Shown: one piece after another, positions 2,817 to 56,600 of the stretch | Layout: each line of letters opens with the position of its first letter | Numbering within the stretch: position 1 is the stretch's first letter | The notes under the pieces: model-generated | Database searches by the model: none | The model's input: only the letters and a program-made list of their open reading frames with translations | What the model was told of the DNA's origin: nothing | Made by a program: the position numbers and the translations under genes | NCBI GenBank assembly: GCA_000165345.1 | Contig: CM000434.1 | Span: 800,001 to 864,000, forward strand | Direction of reading: 5' to 3' | DNA: 64,000 nt

Positions 2817-5195
2817 ATGGATAAAAAAAATACCGGATCAGTAACACAAAGCGTGGGAGGAAATAAAATGAGCGAGTTAGAGTTTACATCATTACCAGCA
2901 GTGGTAGTAGTGGAAAGTTTAGGAGTAGATTCATTTTTACCAATATCATGTGAATTTCCTGAATCATTATTACCAATAAATGGGGTACCGATAATTAATT
3001 ATATAATTGAGATGCTGCTTAAGAATGGTGTAACTGAGATATATTTATTGGCGTATTCTCATAAGGATTTGTTAATGGATCACATTGAAGGATTAAAATC
3101 ATCCAATAAAAAGTTAAGATCATTAAATATTCAAATTATTCAGCTTGGAGTACATTGTAATTCAATTGGAGATGCATTAAGAGATTTAGATTGTCAAGTA
3201 GATATCAGAGACGACTTTGTTTTAATACAAGGGGGATTGCTTTGTGTGGCTGATATAAAGGAAGTAGTTCAAATTCACAAAAAGAAGAGAAGTAGTCAGG
3301 TACCAAATTTATCAATGACAATGATATTTATGGAAAGCCCACCATTAAGTACATTAAGAACAAAAAAGAATGAGAATTTGGTGATCTATGATCAGGTATC
3401 GAATGAATTGGTTCATTGGGGTAAATTTGATGATGATTACTGTTCCAGATTGTCAATGAAGACTTTAATGAGGAACTCGAGTTCATCTTATTATGGTACA
3501 AGTAAATGCATCATTAGATATGATTTATTGGATATAGGACTTGCAATATGTTCTCCTCAATTGCTTAAGACTTTTTGTGAGACCTTTGATTTTACTGATC
3601 TATTTAATGATTTTGTGCAAAATGCATTAAGCTCTGATATTAAACAAGATGTAATAGATGTTTCAATAATGTCTCAGTATGCTGTTAAGATCACAGACTT
3701 TAGGACATATCATGTAGCACAACAACATGTATGTGAAGGATGGGCATTCCCAATGGTACCGGATTATTGTAGTATATCAGGACAGAATGTACAAAGATAC
3801 CAAGGATTTAGTGTATTTTTGGGAGATAATGTAAATATAAGTCCAAGTTCTGAGATTGGATCAATAGTTACTATAGGGAAATCAACAAAGATTGGAAATA
3901 ATTGTAAGATCTCGGATTCTTTTATTGGTGAGAATTGTGTGATTGGAGACAATTGCATCATTAAAGGATGTTCAATATTAGATAATACCGTTATTGAGAA
4001 TAACGTTGAATTGGATTCAAGTTTTATTTCGAGTAATGCTAAGATTATGAGTAATGTAATAGTGAATCCATGTTGTTTAATAGGATCTGGGATTATTATT
4101 CAAGAGAATTCAAAAATTGAATCTTTTAGTAGGGTATCGAGATATATTTCAAGATCTATACTACTTGAGAATCTAAAAAATAAATCTCAAAAAGGTTTTG
4201 AACAAGATGAAAGTGAATTAAGAAGTAATAGTAACTCTCCAAGTATGAATTCTAGACGATTTAAACTTTTAGATGAGACGGATTTATCTTTATTAAGTAA
4301 TATGACAAAAGATGGAGCAATATTGAATGGCGTGATTTGGCCTGAAGATAAGTTAGCTAAGCTGGAAAATCACGAGATCACAAATGAGGATGTACTTTCT
4401 AATATTGTTTTATTTGATTCATCTAGAAACAGAGAGACTGTTTGTAGTAGTGATTCAGAAAGTTCTGATGATGAAGATTTTGATGGAGAGATAATTAGAA
4501 GAGGTAGAAAAGGCATTCAAGGAGGTACCGGAGGGTTGAATAAGGTTAATAATGGAGAAGAGGAGGATGAGGATGATGAAGAGGAAGATGAAGATTCACG
4601 GGAATTTTTTGAAGAGTCTGTGCTACTTATAAAATCTGGACTTGAAAATCCGGTACATATGTCTAATAAGATCTTAGAGTTGAAAGGATTAAGATTTGCA
4701 TTCTTTAAAGATGATCTTGATATTTTAGATACATGTATAATCATGGCATTGGATCTACTTGGTAAAAACTCAAAGGAGTTTCTGGTGGAAGAGAAAGGGT
4801 TTAATAATAATAATAGTACTAGTACAAGAATAGATTTGGATAGATTTAGATCATTTTGTGAGAAGAAAGGCATTTTAGAGCTGGTATCGGCTTTTAATAG
4901 GTCTGAGGATGAAGCCTTTACTGGCTTAATTTGTTCAAAGTTGTTAGAATTTGCTTTAAAAAAGGATTTCCCTCTTCCTTTTGGATCTCTCTTAGTTACT
5001 TTTGAGAGATTGGATCTTATTAATCAGTCTTTCATCCCAAATTGGTATGATAGCGTGATTGGAGGATCAGGAACTGAGACCAAAACAAAAGATGAGGTCT
5101 TATCAATTTTGAGATCAGACTTTGTGGTGAAGTACATTGAATGGCTTAAAGAAGATGAAGAAGATGACGAAGAGGATGAAGAGGATGATGATTAA
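2817..5195 (+). CDS. Translation initiation factor eIF2B epsilon subunit. The ORF track starts at GTG 2814; the first ATG is 2817 and an alternative ATG is 2868.
   Basis: N-terminal nucleotidyl-transferase-like fold (PAVVVVESLGVDSFLPIS...VPIINYIIEMLLKNGVTEIYLL). Left-handed beta-helix hexapeptide repeats (NVIVNPCCLIGSGIIIQENSKIE). C-terminal W2 domain with acidic/aromatic boxes ending WLKEDEEDDEEDEEDDD. Confidence 0.8.
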   Translation: MDKKNTGSVTQSVGGNKMSELEFTSLPAVVVVESLGVDSFLPISCEFPESLLPINGVPIINYIIEMLLKNGVTEIYLLAYSHKDLLMDHIEGLKSSNKKLRSLNIQIIQLGVHCNSIGDALRDLDCQVDIRDDFVLIQGGLLCVADIKEVVQIHKKKRSSQVPNLSMTMIFMESPPLSTLRTKKNENLVIYDQVSNELVHWGKFDDDYCSRLSMKTLMRNSSSSYYGTSKCIIRYDLLDIGLAICSPQLLKTFCETFDFTDLFNDFVQNALSSDIKQDVIDVSIMSQYAVKITDFRTYHVAQQHVCEGWAFPMVPDYCSISGQNVQRYQGFSVFLGDNVNISPSSEIGSIVTIGKSTKIGNNCKISDSFIGENCVIGDNCIIKGCSILDNTVIENNVELDSSFISSNAKIMSNVIVNPCCLIGSGIIIQENSKIESFSRVSRYISRSILLENLKNKSQKGFEQDESELRSNSNSPSMNSRRFKLLDETDLSLLSNMTKDGAILNGVIWPEDKLAKLENHEITNEDVLSNIVLFDSSRNRETVCSSDSESSDDEDFDGEIIRRGRKGIQGGTGGLNKVNNGEEEDEDDEEEDEDSREFFEESVLLIKSGLENPVHMSNKILELKGLRFAFFKDDLDILDTCIIMALDLLGKNSKEFLVEEKGFNNNNSTSTRIDLDRFRSFCEKKGILELVSAFNRSEDEAFTGLICSKLLEFALKKDFPLPFGSLLVTFERLDLINQSFIPNWYDSVIGGSGTETKTKDEVLSILRSDFVVKYIEWLKEDEEDDEEDEEDDD

Positions 5196-11816: not shown

Positions 11817-12204
11817 TTCTTTTAATTCTTCAGCTCTTTAAACGTTATATTAAAACAAGAATTTTACTTCTTCTCTTAAAATGCTGTAATATTAAGGTTT
11901 AAAGCAATATTTATATTTATATAATAAATAATAACCTTGTTATTCCAAAGATTAAACAAAGGTTTTATATTACCTTGAATTGAAATATTTTTAATATTTC
12001 TTTAGCAATTCGTTTTATTGTAAACTTATTAACAATTTTTACTTGAAGTTATTACATAGAAAAAAAAAGAAATTAGTTATTTATTATGCTCTTTTTCGAG
12101 AATTAATTAATATTCAAGTTTAATTTATCTGAATTCATTTGAATTAATAAAAAAAAGAAAGTAAGAGGGGGTGAGCATAAGCAAAATAATTACTGACAAC
12201 TAAT

Positions 12205-12290
12205 TGCATGCGCATGTACTTGCATTATCCACATGCGCATGAATTGCATACTTTCATATATCGGAGTTTACTAACAAAACTGACGTAATA
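12205..12290. promoter_or_regulatory. Composite module (TGCATGCGCATG ... TTATCCACATGCGCATG ... TGACGTAA) upstream of the mucin gene
   Basis: A tandem GCATGCGCATG/CCACATG cluster lies at 12205-12251. A CRE-like TGACGTAA is at 12281-12288. The module sits about 400 bp 5' of ATG 11816. Confidence 0.45.
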
Positions 12291-16570: not shown

Positions 16571-16810
16571 TTACATAAAACAAAAAGAAGGAGTGAAATA
16601 TATTGTTAATACAAACATTAATATTAGTAATTTTTGTTTGTATTGCAAAATTAATTGAATTTAATTACTTCAGGTTGTTGTTCTTTTCTTTTGTATTCTT
16701 CTATTTGCAATAATATTACATAATTTACATACTTTTATTGGATTATTATGAACAACCCTAAAAAATATTTAATGTTTATAATATTTCATATTAAGTAATC
16801 ATTTTTGCAA

Positions 16811-16833
16811 GCATGCATGCATGCATGCATGCA
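16811..16833. repeat. (GCAT)6 / (CATG)n palindromic microsatellite in a convergent 3' spacer
   Basis: GCATGCATGCATGCATGCATGCA lies between the RBMX2 stop (16570) and the stop of gene 16865..17759 (16865). It iterates the GCATGCA core that is otherwise found in promoters. Confidence 0.7.
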
Positions 16834-16864
16834 AAAATTAGGCCAAATATTAATTAAATAATAC

Positions 16865-17759
16865 CTACATTCTTTTATAATTCCGGTTTCCATGTAAATC
16901 TCTAAGATGAAAGTCAAGAGGAAGTAATGATTTACCAAGCTTTAGTGTATTGAATTTATCTTCAAAAAGTTCTTTATATTTACTCCTTTTTAAAGAATTA
17001 ATAATAACAGTATTTCCAGATTCAAGATATTGTATAAATAAACCCATAGAAGGGGTAGTAAATATTAAACTATGTAAATCTGAAGCATCACTTCTTAGAA
17101 TACCAAATTTAATTAATAAATTCAATAGAAAATCCCCACTGAAGTTGGTTTGATGACTTTGACAAATTTTATATTGACTTTTCCATTGAATACATATCAA
17201 AGATAAATAATCCAAAAGATGCTTATTATTTATACTAATTGTCTTATAATTTTGAAAAATGTTTTCTTTAATTAAGTTTAAAATATTTTGTAATAAAATG
17301 TTATTATTTTCATTATTAAAAAGACATTCCAAAAAACATCCATTTAGTCGATTTTGACATTCTAAATTTGAATACTTTTCTTGAATTCTTTGTTTTAACA
17401 CTCTTAATATATCACTCTTTAAACTATAACCTATAGATGACGTAATATTTTTATATGATAAAGATCTTGGTACCTTTAATTTTCTTAATTCACCATCTTT
17501 AACAAGCATTTCCAAATCTTATTAATTCAAATATTAATCATTATATAAATATTATTTAAATTCTATTTATTTTTAACTTACCTTGAATTGGTAATCTATT
17601 TCCATCATTTCCTAATATTTGATGTTCTAATACTATTGGAGGGTCAATAATGCCAATACAATCTTTTCTTAATGAAAAGAATATATTTAATGTTTCTGAA
17701 TATTCATAATTTTCTAAGAATTCTATGATTTTCTCGTCTTTATCATTTTCTTCCATCAT
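16865..17759 (-). CDS. Hypothetical protein. Two exons: complement(join(16865..17517,17582..17759)), with a 64-nt intron.
   Basis: The upstream ORF (ATG 17759) ends ...GNRLPIQ|G immediately before a GTAAGT donor (rc of 17576-17581). The downstream ORF starts at TTG and is preceded by D and an AG acceptor (rc of 17518-17519). Phase 1 is preserved, giving ...PIQ-D-LEMLVKDGELRK. No recognised domain. Confidence 0.55.
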
Positions 17760-19045: not shown

Positions 19046-19185
19046 ATACTATAACAAGTAACTCTAGGTAGCAATGTAGGTGTAATAAGAATAATAATAA
19101 TATATACTTTACCATTACATAATAATATTACGAGGAAAAGAACGACCAAGTAAAAGAAATTATTCTATCCTGACTGACTATGACT

Positions 19186-19300
19186 TCTCCTCGCTTTCTC
19201 CTTCTCCTTTCTATCGCTCTCCACTCTCCACTCTCCACTCTCCACTCTCCCCCATCAATATTCCTTTTACCTACAACTTTTAATTCCCATCTTTTCCCCA
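19186..19300. repeat. Polypyrimidine / (CTCTCCA)n tract (GAGA-like on the minus strand)
   Basis: CTCCTCGCTTTCTCCTTCTCCTTTCTATCGCTCTCCACTCTCCACTCTCCACTCTCCCCC is followed by (TA)n and then TGCATGCAAATTTGGCGCCAAAA at 19492-19514. Confidence 0.7.
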
Positions 19301-19696
19301 CACACACTCTATCTCCATATATATATATAAATATATATATATATATCCACCATAATGTCACACCTATCAAGATTCAATTTCTAATTTCAGTCCTATTTTC
19401 TCATTCCCTCTCACACTCTCCTTTACCTTCACTATTTCTATTTTTCCCTATCTATTTTCTCTTTCCCTCCCCCCTCTAATCAAAGTATTCTTGCATGCAA
19501 ATTTGGCGCCAAAATAGAAATGACAAAGGGGCTTAAAAGAAAAGCTTTAAATCTCTTCTTACTTATAAGAAAAGATTCAAGAGAGGCCAAAAAAAAAAGA
19601 AAAGAAAAAAAACATGTAAGTTACCCAAAAATAGAGACAAAAATTGGAACTGGGACTCTTTTCCAGTCCAATCATAATGTGCTATCCATCCCCATA

Positions 19697-23896
<4,200 letters not shown>

Positions 23897-31647: not shown

Positions 31648-32144
31648 TAATAGCATCCATTAATTATTCATCATCATATTAAAGTTATTTTAAATAAAAC
31701 GATTAACTTCAAATCTATCAATTATTGAACAAAGATTTCAATCTGAAATCTTCTAAATTAGTTCTTAATTGATTATTATTATCATTATTATTATTATTAT
31801 ATAAATAGTCTATTTTAATTATTTTACTACTTATTCTCAGTAATTGTATTTTACTGAGAGTCCACAGAATTTACTGCATTTTTTTTTTAATTACATTAAT
31901 ACAATATAACCAAGTCAATTAAGCTATGCACTATTCCTAATTGCAAGGAAGAAAATTATTAAGCTTACTTAATTGATGTTTTGTATGAATTGTCTATGAA
32001 TTCATAAATTTACGGAGAATTATATTGTCCAAAAAAGTGGAATATGAAGAACTACAGCAAAGGAAAATTTGATTTGGAAGTTTTATCAGGAAAAAAACAC
32101 TGAGGGGGATGGCTTTCCCGAAAATAAATAGGCGCCATAAAGAC

Positions 32145-32153
32145 AAAAAAAAA
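32145..32153 (-). terminator. Pol III oligo(T) terminator for tRNA-Gln
   Basis: A9 on the plus strand is T9 on the minus strand, 10 nt 3' of the tRNA acceptor end. Confidence 0.6.
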
Positions 32154-32163
32154 GTGGAAATAC

Positions 32164-32234
32164 AGGAGCTACTGGGAATCGAACCCAGGCTACCGGAATC
32201 AAAATCCGGGGTCCTACCGCTAGACTATAGCTCC
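32164..32234 (-). tRNA. tRNA-Gln (anticodon UUG)
   Basis: Reverse complement: GGAGCTATAGTCTAGCGGTAGGACCCCGGATTTTGATTCCGGTAGCCTGGGTTCGATTCCCAGTAGCTCC. It folds as a cloverleaf with a 7-bp acceptor stem GGAGCTA/TAGCTCC, D-stem GTCT/GGAC, anticodon stem CCGGA/TCCGG and loop TTTTGAT (anticodon TTG). The T-arm is CTGGG-TTCGATT-CCCAG (GGTTCGATTCC box B). A T9 run lies 10 nt downstream on the same strand. Confidence 0.85.
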
Positions 32235-32487
32235 TTACGCCGCTATGGTGATTTTATAAAGAGTTAATCTATACAAATCAAAATATTAAGCTTAATAAAA
32301 CTCAGATAAATTTTTGTTCAAGAAGGAAATTAACAAGGCATTCTATTTAAAGATTAATAAATAGATTATTCAATTAAATATTTTGGAAAATAAACGAAGT
32401 TTAAAAAAATTTTTGATGAACTATTATGGAAGAAAATGATCAATGTTAAGTTTTGAGAGATAAAAGTATTAAGAAATAAATAAATAT

Positions 32488-47486: not shown

Positions 47487-48025
47487 CTTTTTCTCATATA
47501 TATCTTTTTACATAAATTTTGTTTATTTGTAATCTTATTAAAATATTTATTAATTCTTTAATATTCTCAAATATCTCTTTTTAATTAAATATATTAAAAC
47601 CTTTAAAGAAATTCGTTTTAAAGTTCATTAAAAAAAGTTTGGTTTCCCCTTTGGTTTTTGTTACTGTGAATATTTTTGATTTATTCAATAAATGACTATA
47701 ATATTGTTTATAAATTTTATATATGTATATATTTATATATATAATATATATAAATATATATTATATACTTATTTGCAATAAAATGTTATTATATTCTTAT
47801 TCAAGTATAGACTCTCACTTATCTAATATTAAATGTACTTTATTATTAATTTCATCCAAATTTATCCATTTGTTTATTATAGGATTATTCACACTATTTT
47901 AATTCCATGCACCTTAAATACCTTTCTCTATCACACAATCCCATATTTCTCGTTGGTTTTTTTAAATATTATTTCTTTATGTTATTTATTTATTTCAGTG
48001 TGCATTAACACACCAATTGCACACA

Positions 48026-48385
48026 TTGGCGCCGCCACATGGTATCGATTAATGAATTAAATTGATTGCAAACGGAAAAAATTAAGATGGATGGAAGCCA
48101 AATAATAAACAAAAGCAAACTTGAAAATTTATTAATTTGATTTTGATCTTCTCTTTTCAATATTCCCTATCATACAAATCACTCATAATCACTAATAATT
48201 ATATTAGCTCTTGTATTTTTTTTTTTGTAATATATTCAAATTTATTCAAAATTCTGAAACTCCATCCTTAAACTTATCTATTCTGATTTGTAGTTTGTCC
48301 ACATGAACTTGCAAATGTTTGCAAGTTGCATGCAATTACCTGCATTACACGTAATTGGTGAAATTCAATACCGGTATATAGGCGG
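48026..48385. promoter_or_regulatory. Bidirectional promoter with E2F-like ATTGGCGCCGCCACA plus a composite module (TCCACATG, TTGCATGCAATTACCTGCATTACACGTAATTGG, ATACCGGTATATAGGCGGGG)
   Basis: It lies between the 670-aa ANK gene (ATG 47486, -) and the PDI-like gene (ATG 48645, +). Confidence 0.5.
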
Positions 48386-48644
48386 GGCCCCACAAAATAA
48401 TGGATTTACATGTATTAGCATACGTAAGAAATAATATTAACGAAAAAATGGGATATTTCGTCGGTGATTAGAGTGGAATACGTATATAAGATATGGACGT
48501 AAGGTAGGAGAAATATTATGTTGAAGATATTTTAAGTTTTAATGTTATAGAATTATTAATCAGTGATATTTGGTGTGATTTTGTTTTTGAGATTTCAATT
48601 AAGGAAAAAAGTAAATAATCAAAAGATTGATAAGAGATAAAGAT

Positions 48645-50372
48645 ATGAAGATTTTTACGGAAAAACTGGCTGTATTTATTGCCGTCTTGGTAATATTAAT
48701 TTCGAATATCTCATGCAATAAAGAAATTGAAATCCCTGAAGATGTTACAAAATTGAATGATGACAACTTTGAAGAATTCATTGATGGAAATAATCTTGTA
48801 CTAGTATTATTTTATGATTCTTCCACTACTTCAAAAAATATAATCCATGGTCTTGGATATGTTTACTCAAACGTAGTAATGTCAAAAGGAACAGGAAAAA
48901 TTGCTGTTTTAAATTGTGAGGAATCTTCAATTCAAAAGAAATTTGAAATTCACCATCCTCCAAAGCTGCTATTCTTTTTTGGAAGTATAAACAAATTTGA
49001 GGCATATCCAAGCCATCTAACTGGTTTGGAAAGAGAATCAATGATTTCGATTATCCTTGCAAAAGAAAATGCTCTCTTCATTGAACATGATGCCAGAGAT
49101 AGTGAATCATTGGAAAAGGCTATGATAGAGTTTGACTTGGAAACAAAAGTTCGCTCCTCCAATCTCCCTGTTATTGTTTATTATGGTAAACCAGGTACTA
49201 AGAGAACTGATGTCGTAAAAAACACACTCGAAAAGTTAAGACTAACTGGAGTTTCCGTTAAAGCATTCATTATTTATGTTAAATACAAGGCCGATATTGG
49301 ATTACATATTTATAGATTGCCTGATTCAGATAAGCATGACTCTATGAATATTCAGCCAAAAGAACTTTATATTGCAAAGAAAAAGATCTTGGGATTATTA
49401 GAGTGGAACAAAGATATTTTATCTGTCTTTATTGAAGCTTGCATAAGGCCATATGTCTCTTTTAAAGGTAATGAAATTATGTATGTACACGAAAGTTCTA
49501 ACTCTTTAATAGCTTTCCTTAAGGGAAGCAACACTCTAGATCGGTATGGATCTAGCAATATTCAGTACTTAGATCATGATTCAATGGAATCTTTGAGAGC
49601 TTTTGCAAAGGCTAACTTTTTCCCAGAAGATCCAGATAAGGATTTAATGATTGGGCTTGTATTACCAGGATTAGAACAGGAGGTAGAAAACTTTACTGGT
49701 TTTCGAAGGGATGCTCATGTGAATGATGGAACCTTCCTCTTGAAACTTCGACAATCCAAATTTGAGCTTGGGAACTCCGGGAAGTCTGATAAATTCCTGC
49801 TTACTGAAGGGGAAATTAAAAAACATGGATTTGAATATTTACTTTCTCAGGCTAAGAATAGAAAATTACCCATTTTTTATAAAAGTAAGAGAATAATGAA
49901 ACAGCAAAAGGTCTCTGCTAGTGTTGAACAATATTTCACAACCCCATATCATTTTCTTGAGCTAAATCCTTCTTCCATCAGAGAGCTAATCCAAGACCCA
50001 AATAATGCACTGATAGTCCTTTACTATTCTGAAATGTGCTCAGGGTGCATGGATCTCCTTCCAATTTGGAACTCGATCTCTTCAAAAATTGCTTCAAAAT
50101 TTGGAAAAGATTCCAAATTCCGTGTTTTTGTCTCCGCTTTCGATGTAGAGTTTAATGACAATCCAATTGATATGCAAATTGAGAAAATTCCTTTAGTATA
50201 CTATTTCCCATTTGGAGAAGATAAAGTTTCCAAGATGTTCTTATATGATGAGGAAATAACCTCTAAAACTGTTACTACATTTATAACTGATAGAGTTCTA
50301 GAGGTTTCTGAAGATAATGATCAAGCTGAGCAAAATATTAGTCCGGATTCTCAAATCAGGGATGAGCTTTAA
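48645..50372 (+). CDS. Secreted thioredoxin-fold protein (PDI-like), with one degenerate and one CSGC-containing domain. The ORF-track start at 48627 is TTG; the first ATG is 48645.
   Basis: The signal peptide MKIFTEKLAVFIAVLVILISNISC follows ATG 48645. The first thioredoxin-like domain (LNDDNFEEFIDGNNLVLVLFYDSS) lacks CxxC. A later domain has YYSEMCSGCMDLLPIW, a CxxC active-site-like motif. Confidence 0.6.
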   Translation: MKIFTEKLAVFIAVLVILISNISCNKEIEIPEDVTKLNDDNFEEFIDGNNLVLVLFYDSSTTSKNIIHGLGYVYSNVVMSKGTGKIAVLNCEESSIQKKFEIHHPPKLLFFFGSINKFEAYPSHLTGLERESMISIILAKENALFIEHDARDSESLEKAMIEFDLETKVRSSNLPVIVYYGKPGTKRTDVVKNTLEKLRLTGVSVKAFIIYVKYKADIGLHIYRLPDSDKHDSMNIQPKELYIAKKKILGLLEWNKDILSVFIEACIRPYVSFKGNEIMYVHESSNSLIAFLKGSNTLDRYGSSNIQYLDHDSMESLRAFAKANFFPEDPDKDLMIGLVLPGLEQEVENFTGFRRDAHVNDGTFLLKLRQSKFELGNSGKSDKFLLTEGEIKKHGFEYLLSQAKNRKLPIFYKSKRIMKQQKVSASVEQYFTTPYHFLELNPSSIRELIQDPNNALIVLYYSEMCSGCMDLLPIWNSISSKIASKFGKDSKFRVFVSAFDVEFNDNPIDMQIEKIPLVYYFPFGEDKVSKMFLYDEEITSKTVTTFITDRVLEVSEDNDQAEQNISPDSQIRDEL

Positions 50373-50543
50373 ACTTCTAATTCATTCTTTCTTTTTTTGA
50401 AGATTTCTTTTAATTTAATAACTTTCTATCTAATTACAAACAAAATCATAAATTTAATGTTAAAATTTATATGCCTAAAACTAGTGGCTCATGTATGTAT
50501 ATTATATTTATATATTTTTTATCCCACCCCGGTACCTGGTTAA

Positions 50544-50595
50544 GTGCAGCACGTGCATGCGCATGTTTGCGCGGGGATTGGGCGGGAAAATTTGC
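50544..50595. promoter_or_regulatory. GC-rich island GTGCAGCACGTGCATGCGCATGTTTGCGCGGGGATTGGGCGGGAAAATTTGC between two convergent 3' ends
   Basis: It contains CACGTG, GCATGCGCATG and an E2F-like GGGCGGGAAAA, yet it lies between the PDI-like stop (50372) and the giant gene's stop (50601), where no promoter is expected. Confidence 0.4.
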
Positions 50596-50600
50596 TCTTC

Positions 50601-53600
50601 TTAAGTTGTAAACTTGAAAAAGGTTAATATTGCAAGTGGTGTAAAAATATAAAGACAAAACCCTGACAATTTTTCTGTTATATCAAATCCACAAATCTTA
50701 AGCAAAGGTGGTGTTGAGTTAATTACAAGTAGAACCTTCTCTATCACAATATAAATCCCTGCTCCTGGTGGAGTTCTATGTAAAATATTTTGCAACCAAG
50801 AATGAGTTCTTACTGATGTTCTGTTTATTTGATAAAGTAGCCTTATTACATATGAAGAAAAAATAAACATAACTATTCCCATTGTTAGAAAAATTGTCTC
50901 ACAATTTGAATAAGTATTGATCATATTATTTTCTGAAGATGATGGAATTGTTCCTTGATAAGATAAATATGAAGTTGCATATTGAGGAATTGTTAACATA
51001 AATGAAAGAGCTGAAGTTTTAATGTTTGATATACTTGCTAGATTTGAATATGTTAATGTTGAATGTGAAATTACTGGATTATTATCATTGTTATTCATAC
51101 CAGAACGTATTGATCTCATCAAATTTATATTATTTATAAAATTGTTGGTACCTTCTCCTGGAATATTAGTATAATAATGATCATTTAAATCTATCATTGA
51201 TGATATATCATTATATTTATTCATATTATAATTATCCTCATTATTTGAGTTTAAAATATAATCAATATTTGAAATTGAATCCATAAATTGATTTTTATTT
51301 GTTGAAAAAGATCCTGTCTTAAAAAAGTTATTCATAAAATGATCCCCTATTGATCTTGAATTTAACTCATTTAACAAATTTGTACTAATTCCTCCACCTA
51401 TAATATTTGGAGATGTAGTTAATATTCTTGAAATATCTTTATCAAAAGAACCTCTTACAATATTTGTTGAACCAGAAGCTGATAATCCATTCAAATTTTG
51501 ATTTGAACTTGGATTCTTACTCAACATTGTAGAAGATGAAAGATCTGAAACTCGATTATTATATATTCTATTCTTTTTGTTATATATTGCAACAAGCATA
51601 ATTTTCCCAATACAAAAGAAAATTAAAGTATTTATAGATACAGAAGCATTTAAGAAAGATGTCCAAAGCTTTGTATTCTTATAAAGGATATGTTGTATTG
51701 CACTTCTCCAATAACTAACAATTTGAATAAATTCTTGAACATTTGAATATTTAAATTGGGTTGGAATATGTTGAACTAATACAATACAAAGTCTTTTTCT
51801 TTGTTTCACAAAGAATAATAAAATAATCAAACCTTTCAAAATCTCAAAAATTAAGTTGGAAATCCAATATGTAAATATACATTCAATAATATAAACTGTT
51901 ATTGGAGATTTATTATAAAGGAAATATAAAGTTGAATCCCTTATTAAATATGAATTACTTTTAAATAATGTTATTGATATATTTGATGACATTGCCACAA
52001 TACAACTTATTATCTTGCAAGTAATAACAACATTAAAGTATTCATATGGAGTATTATAACTCACTTCATCCACTAATCGATATAATGGTTTATGAATCTG
52101 ATTATTAGTTACAACATTTCCAATATTTGTTCTAATATTATCACAACTTAAATTATCTTCTGCACTTGAAATAATGTTCCTAATTTTTCTTAATCTAATA
52201 GATCTTTTAACTTGGTTATTACTTTTTATGAAATTATTAAAGTTATCATTAATACTTGGAATTTTTTTCTGCCGTTTAGAATTAATATAAATACTTGTTT
52301 TACTTGATATGTTAGTATCACTTTGATATATTTGTTGTGTATTTTTTATTCTATTACAATAATTAGATAAAACTGACTTAAAACGTTTGTTTGCTGTGTT
52401 ACTTCGGGTTATTCTAATAGCTGGACCACTCAAAGTTGAACAAAATTTATCATTTACTAACCCAAAAGATGAAGATTTTGAAGAATTAATGTCAAAAGCA
52501 ATATTAATATCATTTGATTCAATTTTTGAATTATAATTTTGAATCCAAGGTGTTCTCAAATATTTATCTCCTGAGCTAGTATCATTAGAAATGGTTGAAG
52601 TAATTGATAATAAATCAGGCAAACAAATATATTCTCCTCCTGTTGAAGATTTTTTTACTTTAACTGAACTTTTCTTCATTACTTTCACTTTATTTACTTT
52701 AGAATGATTTGGATTTAATTTTATCCTATTGATATATTTATCATCATCATTTTTTTTTGTTATAGATTCTAAATCTGAACCAAGTGAATTTGTATCTTCA
52801 TTTGATTCACTCGAACTCAAATTCTCATCATCCGCAAAGTTATTATTTTCAAAATATTTTGAAGATGATGATGAATATGAGGTAAAACGAGAATAAGATC
52901 TCGATCCAAAAGTTGTCACATTTGAAGAAGAAACTCCCAATAAATTAAACCTTGCAGTATTTGGTGAAGAAAAATTAGATGAAGAATCTGGTTGAGAAGT
53001 TACTGAACAACCATTTACTTCATTTGAATAAGAATGACTGGCCTTTGTGTTAATGTAGTAATTACTAGTTGAAAAACTTGATCCTGATTGACTATTATTT
53101 AATTCTGATATAAAACTCCCGCCAAATCTATGATGCACTTGTGCATGTAACTCCGGTATTAAATCCATATGAGACTTATTTCTAGAACTTAATTTTTGAC
53201 TTGATAATTTTTGTGGAATCAACATATTTGGTGAAATTTCAATTTGATTGTCTAAGATTGGAACTTCACTATTAATTTTATTATTAGAATTCTTGTCAAT
53301 ATCACTTTTGTCGCAATCAAAGTCATAGTCATACTCATTATTATTATTATGACTGAAATAGTTGTTTTTAATTAAAGTACTTGAATTCATTGCACAGTTT
53401 AAAAGGTTTGAATATATATTTCTGATATTTTTTCTGTTTTCTACAGATTTCTTATAATAGTAATAATTATATAAGTAATATTCTTTAGAAAATCCACAAA
53501 AGTATTTGTTACAATAGTTGGAAACAAATTCATGTGTGTAATATATTCTAACACTTGAACAGAGTGTGGCTGTGATAATGACTCCAATTAAGAACCATAT

Positions 53601-56600
53601 ATAGTCATATTCACTAATTAGGAAAAGTATCGTGAATAAGTAAATTAATGAAATAATTTGTATGAAGAAGAATAAGTATTTGATAATAGACTGAAGATTT
53701 GTATTTTTTTGAGAGTTTTTTTGCTTAAAATAATTCATTGGAGCATTCAACAAATTACTCTTTGTAGTTTTAATAGTATTCATAGACTTTTTATCCTTAA
53801 TATTTTCTTTTAAAGAGTTATCCTTATAAATATACCAAGGTGATGTGAAAATTAAAGACAATGCCAACAATACTGAATCAATGACTTTTCCTGATGCAGA
53901 TACTGGGAAAATTTCTGCAAAATCTCTTAATCTAAATACAGAATATGGCAATGTATTTAAAAAAGCTTTTCTCGTATATTTGAGAATATTTTTTGTTAAT
54001 AACTGAATTGATGATTTTGACTTAAAATTTGAATTTTGGCTTTCATTAGTTACACCCGATATTCCTCTTTTTTTTTCTTTTTTATTTTGTCTGATTAACC
54101 CACTTTTTGTTTTTTTATTTGAATTTATTTTCTTTTTAATCTTTTCCTTACTCCAATCGTTTATCATGTTTTTGATATAAAAGACTTTGAGATATGATAT
54201 AATTGCCCAAAGTAATATGTAAATTATAGATGTCAATAGAATTGCAGAAGAAACTCGAATAGCTGATGGAATTATATGATTATGAGGACTTGTATTTAAT
54301 AAAGTAATGAATTTTGCTTTTTTAGCCAATAGTTCTTCAAACGTAGTATATGAACTTGATTTATCACAGATTGGATGTTTATTCATCATTCCATAAAGTT
54401 TACTTCTACTTATTAAGGGACCTAAATCAGTAACATTAGCTTTAGCTGGTATTTCTGGTATGTAACCAAGATGAATTTTTTGATAATCACTATTTAGACT
54501 TGGAATATAACATTCAGTTTTTTCACCAATACATTGAGAATCTATCAGCAATGTACTGGATGGATCAAATTCATGTTCATGATCTTGACTAAAAATCATG
54601 GGTACCCATAAGACCTCTTTTATTTGCATAATATTACAAATGTTTGGTAGCTCTATTAAGCAGTTACCCAAATATGTATTTATTCCCATTTTTTTATCCA
54701 TCTTTTTATATAATGCATCAATTCCAGTTTCATGTGTAGGTGTTGTTTCCATATTATCTTGACCAAAATAGTCAAAGTCGTCCAATATTCCTTGTATCTT
54801 CTCATTTAAATTGTTGCTTTGAGTATTTTCAATAGCATCATTAATATTTAGATTCTCTAATCTGTTTTTAAGAGTATGAAGTCCTTGAATCTTTGAAAAA
54901 TCCACGTTCTTTCCTAAGAAGAGTTCAGCTTCATTATTTCTTGGATAATTACAGGTGGAGTTCTGTAAAATTTTGATAATATGTTCAAAACTACTGGAAC
55001 GTACAAATTTGGTCATTTCTGGAGACAATAATTGTTTTACTAGATTGATAGCTTCTCCTAAAGAATCAGTTTTTCGATATTCTGTTTTAGTCTTTGATAA
55101 ATTAACTAATTCATCATTTTTGTCAGTATAATTTTGGAAAAGTTTAGTCTTTTGAGAAAAAATGGTGTCAAAGTTACTAAAAATAGATTCATATTCTCCG
55201 CTAGTATCGTGTTGAGAAATATGATCATCTTCTTCAAAATAACCTCTTCTCATTTCACTTCTCACAAAATTCATTTGTTCTTCAAGTTCATTCTGCTCGT
55301 CCAGCTCATTCTGTTTTTCCACTTCCTTATTGTTTTCAGTAAAATCAAATTGATACTGCAAAAAGAAATCGCGACTAAATTCTGGATTAGAGTAAATACT
55401 ACCTTCAACGGAACTACTGCTCTTTACTTTCTCATTAAAAGTAGTATTTTCTAGCTTTACTGAAACATTTACATCTCTTCCATTTGAATCAGAAGCTGTC
55501 AAACTTTCATTAATATACTGGAAGATTTTATTGTGTTCAATACTATTAATTTTAGCCAAATTATCTAGCTCAGTCTCATCTGAATCAGTCTCTGAATTAG
55601 AATCAATTTCACGAATTTCTCCTTCAATACCATTCGAAAGAATAATAATTCTAACCAAAAGTGTAACGGGAATAGCCATCAAATCATCTAAATTTGGAAA
55701 TTCTGGAGGTAATGAACCCAATAATCTGGAAGCAACTTGGATACTCACTTCTGATGAGTAATCAAGACTTGAAAGTACTTCTGATAGTGTCTGGACTCTT
55801 CCTAAAAGAATATTTCGAATAATATCATCCTTTCCTAAAATTGTTGCAGTAATAAGAGCATGCTGTAATGCATGAATACACCAAAAGCTTTGTAACATTG
55901 CCTCCCTTAATATTGACTGTAATACCACTTTTGACGTATAATTTTTATTTAATAAAAGTAGTAATGATAAGATCGAAATTGAATTATCATACTCTGAAGT
56001 ACCTATAATAGGTATCGATCGTGGTGTAGGAATTGAGTACCTTTTTAAAGGCTTACAAAAACATCTCACGACAAATGAACTGACGTGGAAGTCTATGGCT
56101 GGTGATGAGAGATATTCAACAATTTTATGTTCACCTGTAATATCGTTTCCTGAGCTAACCGCAAGTTCGTACCAAAGAGTTGTATTGGTTTTTGGATTTT
56201 GAAACATAAGCATTTCCTCGAGAATTTGGAACTTAGGCAACTTATTGTTATTGTTTCCAGAAAATTTGAACTCATTAATTTGATCAAACTCTTCAAACAT
56301 TTTAAAAGATTTTTTACTGCTAATAGTTGGTTTATATAAAAGTGAATTTTCTTTATTAAGTTCTCTGCTCTCTTTTAACATCAATTCCTCCTGATAATTG
56401 ATTTTGTAAATAAGGTGGCCAATAGGAAGGTTCCCATATATATCAGGTTCATGAAGTTCGCAAAGTTCAAAATCCAATACCCCAGTATTAGTCTGAAACT
56501 TGTAGAAACTAACCAAAATCCTAATCAGATCTTCATCTCCAAGATGAGCCATCCACCAAAGCAAGTTCCGGCCTTCATTATCCCTAACAATGCATATATC

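What the first reader, a model, noticed from the sequence alone, without database searches (positions are those of the whole stretch)
50373..50600. GC-rich CACGTG / GCATGCGCATG / GGGCGGGAAAA island wedged between two gene 3' ends
ATCCCACCCCGGTACCTGGTTAAGTGCAGCACGTGCATGCGCATGTTTGCGCGGGGATTGGGCGGGAAAATTTGC (50521-50595) is about 60% GC in a roughly 25% GC spacer. It lies 150 bp after the PDI-like stop and directly abuts the giant gene's stop codon. It combines an E-box, a tandem GCATGCGCATG like the one upstream of the mucin gene, and an E2F-like box. Possibilities are a promoter for an unannotated short transcript, a structured RNA, or a 3' regulatory element. It may also indicate that the real C-terminus of the giant gene differs, for example by a spliced terminal exon.
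Basis: seen in the sequence. Interest (0 to 1): 0.5.

Follow-up and report, generated by a model that had tools for sequence, protein, structure and literature searches.

The report
Conserved promoter-like motif cluster between convergent genes
A 75-base GC-rich patch between the tail ends of two Cryptosporidium parvum genes is a cluster of this parasite's usual promoter motifs, kept in related species; it most likely starts a non-coding antisense transcript, a kind of element already described in this organism.

Summary
Window 50521-50595 is the GC-richest 75 nt of the 64 kb (0.59-0.60 against a mean of 0.29). It holds CACGTG, TGCATGCGCATG and TTGGGCGGGAAA, and ends 5 nt before the stop of a 2330-aa gene on the minus strand. 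The window is C. parvum chromosome 6.

The words match published C. parvum upstream motifs: AP2_1 (GCATGC), G-box (GCGGGG) and E2F (TTTGGCGGGAAV). There is also a CGRTACC(N)GG element, which is the best conserved piece.

The order CGRTACC, GCATGC(n), then in some species G-box and E2F, then the giant-gene stop, is kept in six intestinal-clade species. Two more distant members (C. canis, SRR31860986) keep motif content only. C. bovis, C. ryanae and C. serpentis lack it.

I found no Rfam or tRNA hit, no significant folding and no covariation. The giant protein's C-terminus is conserved to the stop in 7 species, so an alternative terminal exon is not supported.

Best reading: a transcription-factor-binding DNA module acting as a promoter at a 3'-3' junction. 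It would most likely drive an antisense lncRNA, as described for hundreds of C. parvum genes (Li et al. 2021). No transcript data could be reached, so the promoter step is inferred. It is a new member of a known kind, of modest interest.

The parts
50521..50595 (.). GC-rich island as a whole: a composite cis-regulatory module in the 228-nt spacer between two convergent genes
   Evidence: GC 0.587, the maximum of the window. The motif cluster is not expected by chance. It is conserved in related species.
50530..50539 (+). CGGTACCTGG, consensus CGRTACC(N)RG: the most conserved element, a TACC/GGTA-type half-palindrome resembling motif 4 (CCCATACCAGGTGGA) of the lncRNA-upstream motifs in PMC7840661
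   Evidence: The CCG.TACC core is invariant in parvum, hominis, meleagridis, chipmunk and ubiquitum. It is also present in SRR18693150 as CGGTACCTG, and as CGGTGCC in SRR31860986. CGRTACC gives 16 hits against 1.18 expected in the window. Five of these hits lie between ORFs, next to E2F-like or other GC-rich words.
50550..50555 (.). CACGTG palindrome, overlapping the AP2_1 word
   Evidence: Only copy in 64 kb. Kept in hominis and canis. It reads CATGTG in meleagridis and CACATGTG in SRR31860986.
50554..50565 (.). TGCATGCGCATG: AP2_1-type site (BGCATGCAH / TGCATGCA family) plus a second GCATG
   Evidence: GCATGC is present at this place in 7 of the 8 intestinal-clade species and is expanded to (GCAT)n in C. 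ubiquitum. Motif family as in PMC3734150 and PMC4117751. GCATGC density is 0.23-0.83 per kb in intergenic classes against 0.10 per kb in ORFs.
50571..50576 (+). GCGGGG: G-box-type word (G[T/C]GGGG)
   Evidence: Present in parvum, hominis, meleagridis and chipmunk at the same place. Motif definition from PMC4117751.
50578..50589 (+). TTGGGCGGGAAA: E2F/DP-type site, 11 of 12 match to TTTGGCGGGAAV
   Evidence: GCGGGAAA lies 17-21 nt before the giant-gene stop in parvum, meleagridis and SRR31860986. It reads GGGGCGGAAAAA in chipmunk, is mutated to GCGAGAAA in hominis, and is absent in ubiquitum and SRR18693150.
50425..50495 (.). Conserved AT-rich block left of the island. It is probably the overlapping 3'-UTR and poly(A) region of the two genes. 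It contains AAACTA (50478-50483, 'unknown motif 14' of PMC3734150) and a small inverted repeat ATAAATTT/AAATTTAT.
   Evidence: 0.77-0.78 mean identity to three species. Alignment. Inverted repeat I7. No fold signal, z -0.75 and -0.93.
48645..50372 (+). Left flanking gene: ER-type protein disulfide isomerase-like protein (575 aa, ends RDEL)
   Evidence: CAD98406.1, QOY41250.1, CPATCC_002924.
50601..57593 (-). Right flanking gene: 2330-aa ankyrin-repeat, multi-pass membrane protein. Its stop codon abuts the island.
   Evidence: QOY41251.1, CPATCC_002925. C-terminus conserved to the stop in 7 species.

Best explanation
The island is a DNA-level cis-regulatory module: a tight cluster of binding sites for the parasite's own transcription factors. 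It holds an AP2_1 site (TGCATGC...), a G-box (GCGGGG), an E2F/DP site (TTGGGCGGGAAA), CACGTG, and a TACC/GGTA-type element (CGGTACCTGG).

The module sits in the 228-nt spacer where two genes end tail to tail, so it is not upstream of any protein-coding gene. It therefore most likely works as a promoter, possibly bidirectional, for non-coding antisense transcription. The more likely direction is rightward on the + strand, starting at about 50600-50700 and running antisense into the 3' end of the 2330-aa gene. The alternative is leftward, antisense to the PDI-like gene.

Shown here: the motifs, their non-random clustering, their conservation in order and position, and the absence of RNA-gene and coding signals. 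Inferred: that the sites are bound, that transcription starts here, and its direction.
For: (a) The window is C. parvum chromosome 6.

(b) Each word matches a published C. parvum upstream motif family. AP2_1 is BGCATGCAH, E2F is TTTGGCGGGAAV / GGCGGG, and G-box is G[T/C]GGGG (PMC3734150 and PMC4117751).

(c) In this window these words mark regulatory DNA. TTSSCGCC occurs at 0.45-1.24 per kb in intergenic classes against 0.02 per kb in ORFs. GCATGC occurs at 0.23-0.83 against 0.10 per kb.

(d) Li et al. 2021 (PMC7840661) report that C. parvum antisense lncRNAs start preferentially at the end of the sense CDS. They also report that E2F/DP1 and ApiAP2_1 are the top motifs within 100 bp upstream of them. 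Their table holds near-identical words such as TTCCCGCCCAA, as well as motif 4, CCCATACCAGGTGGA.

(e) Phylogenetic footprint. The order CGRTACC, GCATGC(n), [G-box], [E2F], giant stop is kept in parvum, hominis, meleagridis, chipmunk genotype, ubiquitum and SRR18693150. C. canis keeps CACGTG, GCATGC and a CGCGCGCGCC run. SRR31860986 keeps two E2F sites plus TTGTCCACATG, which is lncRNA-upstream motif 5. The surrounding spacer is hardly alignable.

(f) Turnover is of the transcription-factor-site type: (GCAT)n expansion in ubiquitum, and E2F loss or gain. This preserves motif content, not an RNA fold.

(g) The same vocabulary occurs in the real 5' region of the PDI gene. TGCACACAT-TGGCGCC-N6-ATGGTATCG at 48020-48047 is invariant in 5 aligned species and present in 7, counting C. 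parvum. TTGCATGCAA, TTACACGTAA and ATACCGGTAT follow at 48320-48385. It also occurs at 58150-58265, upstream of the giant gene.

(h) A second convergent spacer in the window (19046-19696) also carries TTGCATGCAAATTTGGCGCCAAAA. Such modules at 3'-3' junctions therefore recur.

Against: No transcript, TSS or open-chromatin data could be consulted for this locus.

The stored part of the 396-lncRNA FASTA and motif table of PMC7840661 contains no sequence from either flank of the island. That file is truncated, and a control search for another locus also found nothing, so this negative is weak.

The island is only moderately conserved overall (0.5-0.67 mean identity), less than the 5' blocks of the PDI gene.

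The E2F core is broken in C. hominis and absent in two species.

Third-codon-position identity in the giant gene's 3' end is not raised (0.78-0.80 against about 0.8 elsewhere), so there is no sign of extra constraint from an overlapping antisense RNA.

The module always hugs the giant gene's stop. This also fits a 3'-UTR or termination role.
Confidence: 0.5

Rival explanations
1. The module binds the same transcription factors but makes no transcript of its own. It would act as a 3'-end control element for the flanking genes. Examples are a downstream enhancer or gene-loop anchor sharing factors with their 5' promoters, or a protein roadblock or boundary that stops the two convergent polymerases from reading into each other across a 228-nt gap.
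For: The motif vocabulary is shared with the 5' regions of both flanking genes. The module keeps a constant position right after the giant gene's stop in all species that have it. No lncRNA from this place is found in the accessible part of the PMC7840661 catalogue.
Against: Nothing read in the Cryptosporidium papers consulted describes enhancers, gene loops or roadblock termination in Cryptosporidium; this is an analogy to yeast from my own knowledge. Species with equally short or shorter spacers (bovis 140 nt, ryanae 120 nt) manage without the module.
Confidence: 0.2
2. The island works as RNA. It would be an element in the 3' UTR of the giant-gene mRNA (minus strand), lying immediately after the stop codon, such as a GC-rich hairpin or (U)GCAUG protein-binding sites controlling stability or translation.
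For: The island starts 5 nt after the stop and must be transcribed as part of that 3' UTR if the poly(A) site lies in the AT-rich block. In a 141-nt context the minus-strand fold has z = -2.35 (3 of 200 shuffles fold as well). One pair in the closing stem changes on both sides in the chipmunk genotype.
Against: Fold z for the island itself is only -1.35. The covariation term is +0.5 kcal/mol and several pairs are broken. Species differ by gain and loss of whole motifs and by (GCAT)n expansion. The conserved words are palindromic DNA-type sites also found in 5' regions.
Confidence: 0.12
3. The island is, or belongs to, a small structured non-coding RNA gene (snRNA, snoRNA, tRNA-like or a new family).
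For: In AT-rich genomes GC-rich islands are often RNA genes. The next GC-richest spot in the window is a tRNA-Gln gene.
Against: There is no Rfam match at E<=10 over 50200-50900 and none at gathering score in the window other than the tRNA. ARAGORN finds nothing here. Folding is not significant and there is no covariation. No C/D or H/ACA boxes were seen on reading the sequence.
Confidence: 0.04
4. The giant gene is mis-annotated at its 3' end: its true C-terminus would be encoded by a spliced terminal exon in or beyond the island.
For: None beyond the island's closeness to the stop codon.
Against: The C-terminal 60 residues and the stop position are conserved in 7 species, down to C. bovis. 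Nucleotide identity falls from about 0.9 to about 0.6 exactly at the stop. GenBank annotations place the stop here in several independent assemblies.
Confidence: 0.01

Closest known systems
Upstream regions of C. parvum antisense lncRNAs (Li et al. 2021, PMC7840661)
   Same: The location is the same: the end of the sense CDS. The motifs are the same: E2F/DP1 (TTSSCGCCWAA; island TTCCCGCCCAA on the minus strand) and ApiAP2_1 (ANTTGCATGYA). An element resembles their motif 4 (CCCATACCAGGTGGA against CCGGTACCTGGTTAA). The SRR31860986 orthologue carries their motif 5 (TTGTCCACATG).
   Different: No lncRNA from this locus was found in the accessible part of their catalogue. Only 17 of their lncRNAs combine E2F and AP2_1, whereas this island packs four or five motif types into 75 nt. 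Their motif 4 rests largely on one tandem repeat (Cp_lnc_184), so that resemblance is weak.
Ordinary C. parvum 5' promoters with AP2_1 / G-box / E2F motifs (Oberstaller et al. 2013, 2014; PMC3734150, PMC4117751)
   Same: The word content is the same and is enriched in non-coding DNA. The same words appear in the 5' regions of the two neighbouring genes.
   Different: There is no protein-coding gene downstream in either direction, because the module lies between two stop codons. CGRTACC is not among the 25 motifs listed in PMC3734150.
Antisense promoters in 3' nucleosome-depleted regions of yeast genes (e.g. the Reb1-site-driven GAL10 ncRNA) and 3'-end antisense transcription in Plasmodium falciparum (my own knowledge; P. 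falciparum 3' bias is also cited in PMC7840661)
   Same: Sequence-specific factor sites at a gene's 3' end would launch an antisense non-coding transcript in a compact genome.
   Different: The factors differ (ApiAP2 and E2F/DP). No functional data exist here. The comparison is an analogy of mechanism, not homology.
E2F motifs in internal spacers of C. parvum polycistronic transcripts and in sporozoite ATAC-seq peaks (bioRxiv 10.1101/2025.01.17.633476)
   Same: An E2F-type site lies in a short spacer between genes.
   Different: Those spacers lie between same-strand genes, whereas here the genes converge. AP2 motifs were not seen in sporozoite open chromatin, whereas this island's most conserved parts are the AP2_1 and TACC/GGTA elements.

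Membership tests
C. parvum E2F/ApiAP2-type promoter module | Contains an E2F-type site (TTTGGCGGGAAV or [C/G]GCGC[G/C]) | tested here: met
   TTGGGCGGGAAA at 50578-50589 matches 11 of 12 positions. There are 3 hits in the window against 0.35 expected.
C. parvum E2F/ApiAP2-type promoter module | Contains an AP2_1 site (BGCATGCAH / TGCATGCA) | tested here: met
   TGCATGCGC at 50554-50562 has one mismatch to BGCATGCAH. The match is exact in meleagridis (TGCATGCAC) and chipmunk.
C. parvum E2F/ApiAP2-type promoter module | Lies upstream (about 50-600 nt) of the start of a protein-coding gene | tested here: not met
   It is flanked by two stop codons (50370-50372 and 50601-50603). Accession numbers of the two proteins are consecutive in three GenBank annotations (CAD98406/7, QOY41250/1, KAL5368243/4), which suggests no protein-coding gene is annotated between them.
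C. parvum E2F/ApiAP2-type promoter module | Open chromatin or factor occupancy | not testable with these tools
   ATAC-seq exists, but no peak table is held.
Antisense-lncRNA promoter (PMC7840661) | Position at or near the 3' end of the sense CDS | tested here: met
   The island ends 5 nt from the giant gene's stop, and the position is kept in orthologues.
Antisense-lncRNA promoter (PMC7840661) | A stranded transcript of at least 200 nt starting within about 100 nt of the motifs | tested here: inconclusive
   No 14-20-mer from either flank occurs in the stored lncRNA FASTA or tables. The files are truncated and a control locus also gave nothing. The CpBGF set of 766 lncRNAs could not be consulted.
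Structured ncRNA gene (any Rfam family) | Covariance-model match | tested here: not met
   There are no hits on the island at E<=10. The only gathering-score hit in the window is tRNA-Gln.
Structured ncRNA gene (any Rfam family) | Stability beyond shuffles, and compensatory changes | tested here: not met
   z is -1.70 (+ strand) and -1.35 (- strand). Covariation terms are -0.44 and +0.5 kcal/mol, with broken pairs. Power is low with 4 sequences.
tRNA / tRNA-like Pol III gene | Cloverleaf detectable by ARAGORN | tested here: not met
   The only tRNA is at 32163-32235.

The most novel reading that the evidence does not exclude
The conserved core of the island is not the E2F site. It is the pair CGRTACC(N)GG + GCATGC(n), kept in six species while the rest turns over. 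The TACC/GGTA-type element also sits next to E2F sites in bona fide promoters, as ATGGTATCG at 48039-47 and ATACCGGTAT at about 48372 and about 58252.

It could therefore be the binding site of a not yet described Cryptosporidium transcription-factor dimer. The island could be a conserved 3'-end hub through which that factor, together with a TGCAT-binding ApiAP2, couples sense and antisense transcription of the 2330-aa membrane-protein gene.
Probability: 0.2. Interest if true: 0.5.

Novelty: new member of a known kind. Interest (0 to 1): 0.3.

Why it matters
Gene regulation in Cryptosporidium is poorly understood, and very few cis elements have been tested. A compact, conserved, multi-motif module that is not upstream of any coding gene is a clean candidate for testing three questions by reporter or CRISPR experiments. 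Do E2F and ApiAP2 sites at 3' ends really launch antisense RNAs? Do such RNAs regulate the sense gene? Is the CGRTACC / TACC-GGTA element a functional site? As one locus it adds an instance, not a new principle.

Tried and rejected
Known RNA families. An Rfam E-value scan of 50200-50900 and a gathering-score scan of the whole window gave only tRNA-Gln at 32164-32234. ARAGORN found nothing at the island.

RNA structure. Single-sequence folds of the island and of the AT-rich block gave z between -0.75 and -1.7. The one exception is a 141-nt minus-strand context at -2.35. RNAalifold on 4 species, both strands, showed no covariation.

Alternative C-terminus. Rejected by conservation of the C-terminal peptide and of the stop position.

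Overlapping constraint from an antisense RNA. Third-codon identity in the giant gene's last 450 nt (0.78-0.80) is no higher than further in, so there is no signal.

Small ORFs across the island (46-63 aa). These are not credible. A look-up of the 46-aa ORF returned only genomic contigs and no transcript-like contigs.

Transcript evidence from the literature. The lncRNA FASTA and tables of PMC7840661 were searched with nine sequence words on each strand, plus gene tags, all with 0 hits. A control locus also gave 0 hits. The sRNA paper and the ATAC-seq preprint have no supplements held.

The cgd6 gene identifier could not be recovered from papers.

Local alignment of the island against the rest of the window found only the 13-mer at 12204, so the island is not a repeat or a mobile element.

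Full report
WHAT IS THERE

The window is Cryptosporidium parvum chromosome 6. The 575-aa ORF at 48645-50372 (+) is identical to the protein disulfide isomerase-like protein of BX526834.1 and CP029785.1. It ends in RDEL.

On the minus strand, a 2330-aa ankyrin-repeat membrane protein is encoded at 50601-57593. The two genes converge and leave a 228-nt spacer.

The left 148 nt of the spacer are 17.6% GC. The right 75 nt (50521-50595) are 58.7% GC. The best 75-nt window reaches 0.60, the highest value in the whole 64 kb and above the tRNA-Gln gene.

- CACGTG at 50550-50555. It is the only copy in the window.
- GCATGCGCATG at 50555-50565.
- GGGCGGGAAAA at 50580-50590.

The 13-mer TGCATGCGCATGT recurs at 12204-12216, upstream of a Thr-rich mucin-like ORF.

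IS IT MORE THAN CHANCE?

Yes. I generated 3 Mb of sequence with the first-order composition of this window's intergenic DNA. No 75-nt window reached 0.587 GC. An AP2_1 word with an E2F word within 75 nt is expected 7.6e-5 times per 228-nt spacer.

The 12-mer TTTGGCGGGAAV with at most one mismatch has 3 hits against 0.35 expected.

WHAT THE WORDS ARE

They are the published over-represented upstream motifs of C. parvum (PMC3734150 and PMC4117751):
- AP2_1: BGCATGCAH / TGCATGCA. PMC3734150 reports protein-binding-microarray binding by the ApiAP2 domain cgd2_3490, among others.
- E2F-like: DTTGSCGCCH and TTTGGCGGGAAV.
- G-box: G[T/C]GGGG.

The island carries TGCATGCGCATG, GCGGGG (50571-50576) and TTGGGCGGGAAA (50578-50589).

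In this window these words mark regulatory DNA. TTSSCGCC occurs at 0.45-1.24 per kb between ORFs and 0.02 per kb inside them. GCATGC occurs at 0.23-0.83 against 0.10 per kb. The gene map used here is crude, being ATG ORFs of at least 120 aa.

CONSERVATION

Orthologous loci were fetched for C. hominis, C. meleagridis, the chipmunk genotype, C. ubiquitum, C. canis, C. bovis, C. ryanae and C. serpentis. Two unnamed Cryptosporidium assemblies were also fetched, SRR18693150 and SRR31860986. The gene pair converges in all of them.

Six species keep one architecture: parvum, hominis, meleagridis, chipmunk, ubiquitum and SRR18693150. On the + strand it reads CGRTACC(TG), then 19-25 nt, then GCATGC (one to six overlapping copies), then in some species G-box and E2F, then the giant-gene stop.

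Two more distant members keep motif content only:
- C. canis keeps CACGTG, GCATGC and a CGCGCGCGCC run.
- SRR31860986 keeps CGGTGCC, two E2F sites and TTGTCCACATGTG.

C. bovis, C. ryanae and C. serpentis have AT-rich spacers with none of these words.

The changes between species are of the binding-site-turnover kind. C. ubiquitum has a (GCAT)n expansion. C. hominis has a broken E2F core (GGGCGAGAAAA). Two species have no E2F site.

Overall identity of the island to three species is only 0.5-0.67, against 0.45-0.55 for unconstrained spacer and about 0.8 for the CDS. The footprint lies in the motifs, not in the whole stretch.

THE CGRTACC ELEMENT

This is the most conserved piece, and it is not in the 25-motif list of PMC3734150.

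CGRTACC occurs 16 times in the window against 1.18 expected. About six of these form a periodic coding repeat inside ORF 2817-5195.

Five lie between ORFs, each beside E2F-like or other GC-rich words:
- 18193: TTTGGCGCGCGCGCCAACGACGGTACC.
- 45249: GGCGGGAAG...CAGGTACCG.
- 48041.
- 50530, in the island.
- 57976.

The copy at 48041 lies in the real 5' region shared by the PDI gene and its divergent neighbour. There, TGCACACAT-TGGCGCC-N6-ATGGTATCG is invariant in five aligned species and present in seven, counting C. parvum.

Related half-palindromes (ATACCGGTAT) occur at about 48372 and about 58252. The element resembles motif 4 (CCCATACCAGGTGGA) of the lncRNA-upstream motifs in PMC7840661. That motif rests largely on one tandem repeat, so I treat the resemblance as a lead only.

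WHAT IT IS NOT

It is not a known RNA family. There is no Rfam match at E<=10 and no tRNA.

It is not a convincingly structured RNA. The island folds with z of -1.7 (+ strand) and -1.35 (- strand). RNAalifold gives covariation terms of -0.44 and +0.5 kcal/mol, with broken pairs. The AT-rich conserved block to its left folds no better than shuffles. With four alignable sequences the covariation test has little power. The hairpins that do form come from the palindromic DNA motifs themselves.

It is not a hidden terminal exon. The last 60 residues of the giant protein (...FTPLAILTFFKFTT*) and the stop position are conserved in seven species. DNA identity drops from about 0.9 to about 0.6 exactly at the stop.

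It is not a repeat or a mobile element.

HOW IT MOST LIKELY WORKS

A cluster of ApiAP2, G-box and E2F sites that lies downstream of both neighbouring genes has one well-documented use in this organism.

Li et al. 2021 (PMC7840661) found 396 lncRNAs, 92% of them antisense. Their starts concentrate at the end of the sense CDS. E2F/DP1 and ApiAP2_1 are the top two motifs in the 100 bp upstream. The newer CpBGF annotation lists 766 lncRNAs. [quoted passage not shown]

I therefore read the island as a promoter at a 3'-3' junction.

The module hugs the giant gene's stop in every species, and the E2F site is its gene-proximal element. The more likely product is therefore a + strand transcript starting at about 50600-50700, antisense to the giant gene's conserved 3' end. 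A minus-strand start into the PDI 3' UTR, or both directions, remains possible.

The same vocabulary appears at the 5' regions of both neighbours. TTGTCCACAT, TTGCATGCA, TTACACGTAA and ATACCGGTAT occur in the same order at 48290-48400 and at 58150-58265. This suggests that sense and antisense units answer to the same factors.

The steps from 'motif cluster' to 'bound' to 'initiates transcription' are inferred. I could reach no RNA-seq, TSS or ATAC data. The accessible, truncated part of the lncRNA catalogue has nothing from either flank, with no positive control. Third-codon identity in the giant gene's 3' end is not elevated, so there is no extra evidence for a constrained overlapping RNA.

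RIVALS

- A factor-bound 3' control element with no transcript of its own (enhancer, loop anchor, roadblock or boundary): 0.2.
- An RNA-level 3'-UTR element of the giant mRNA: 0.12.
- A small structured RNA gene: 0.04.
- A mis-annotated C-terminus: 0.01.

VERDICT

The island is a new instance of a known kind, a Cryptosporidium E2F/ApiAP2 promoter-like module at a gene's 3' end. Its one possibly new ingredient is the conserved CGRTACC / TACC-GGTA element. Interest is modest (0.3).

The decisive check is simple: look at the CpBGF lncRNA annotation, stranded long reads and ATAC-seq at CP029785.1 847682-847756.

Noticed in passing
window 19046-19696 (motifs at 19490-19515; CT-rich repeats 19200-19250): A second convergent spacer (651 nt) carries an adjacent AP2_1 + E2F pair, TTGCATGCAAATTTGGCGCCAAAA. 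This is about 190 nt from the stop of the 1399-aa minus-strand ORF 19697-23896. A CTCCACT-type CT-rich run forms another GC peak. It may be another 3'-end promoter or an unannotated gene.
   Followed up: partly
window 48290-48400 and 58150-58265: The 5' region of the PDI gene and the region between the giant gene's ATG and the stop of ORF 58339-59562 share four 9-10-mers in the same order on the + strand: TTGTCCACAT, TTGCATGCA, TTACACGTAA and ATACCGGTAT. This looks like a shared promoter cassette. Relative to the giant gene it is inverted and points into the 3' end of ORF 58339-59562.
   Followed up: partly
window 47785-48060 and 48285-48520: Two non-coding blocks upstream of the PDI gene are 0.8-0.92 identical to meleagridis, chipmunk and ubiquitum. 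That is more conserved than the PDI coding sequence. Their indels are not multiples of three. Block A contains the invariant TGCACACAT-TGGCGCC-N6-ATGGTATCG. No Rfam family matches them at gathering score.
   Followed up: partly
window 2984-4889 (inside ORF 2817-5195): GGTAYCG (reverse complement of CGRTACC) recurs six times at intervals of about 360-410 nt inside one 792-aa ORF. This suggests a protein built of repeated domains. It accounts for much of the window-wide excess of CGRTACC (16 against 1.18 expected).
   Followed up: no
window 16809-16834: A (GCAT)5-6 array (AAGCATGCATGCATGCATGCATGCAAAAA) lies 31 nt past the stop codon of minus-strand ORF 16865-17509. This is another AP2_1 array right at a gene's 3' end, reminiscent of the (GCAT)n form of the island in C. 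ubiquitum.
   Followed up: no
L010 4925-4935 (C. hominis orthologue of window 50580-50590): C. hominis has GGGCGAGAAAA where C. parvum has GGGCGGGAAAA, so the E2F core is broken. It also has TTTCCGCGGGG in place of TTTGCGCGGGG. This is a possible regulatory difference between the two human-infecting species.
   Followed up: no
window 50373-50395 and orthologues: CTAATTC(A/G)T lies directly after the PDI stop codon in parvum, hominis, chipmunk, ubiquitum, canis and SRR31860986, although the rest of the 3' UTR diverges. It may be a 3'-UTR element of the PDI mRNA.
   Followed up: no
window 32163-32235: tRNA-Gln (UUG) on the minus strand sits in another convergent spacer (31648-32487). It is the only Rfam or ARAGORN hit in the window.
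   Followed up: yes
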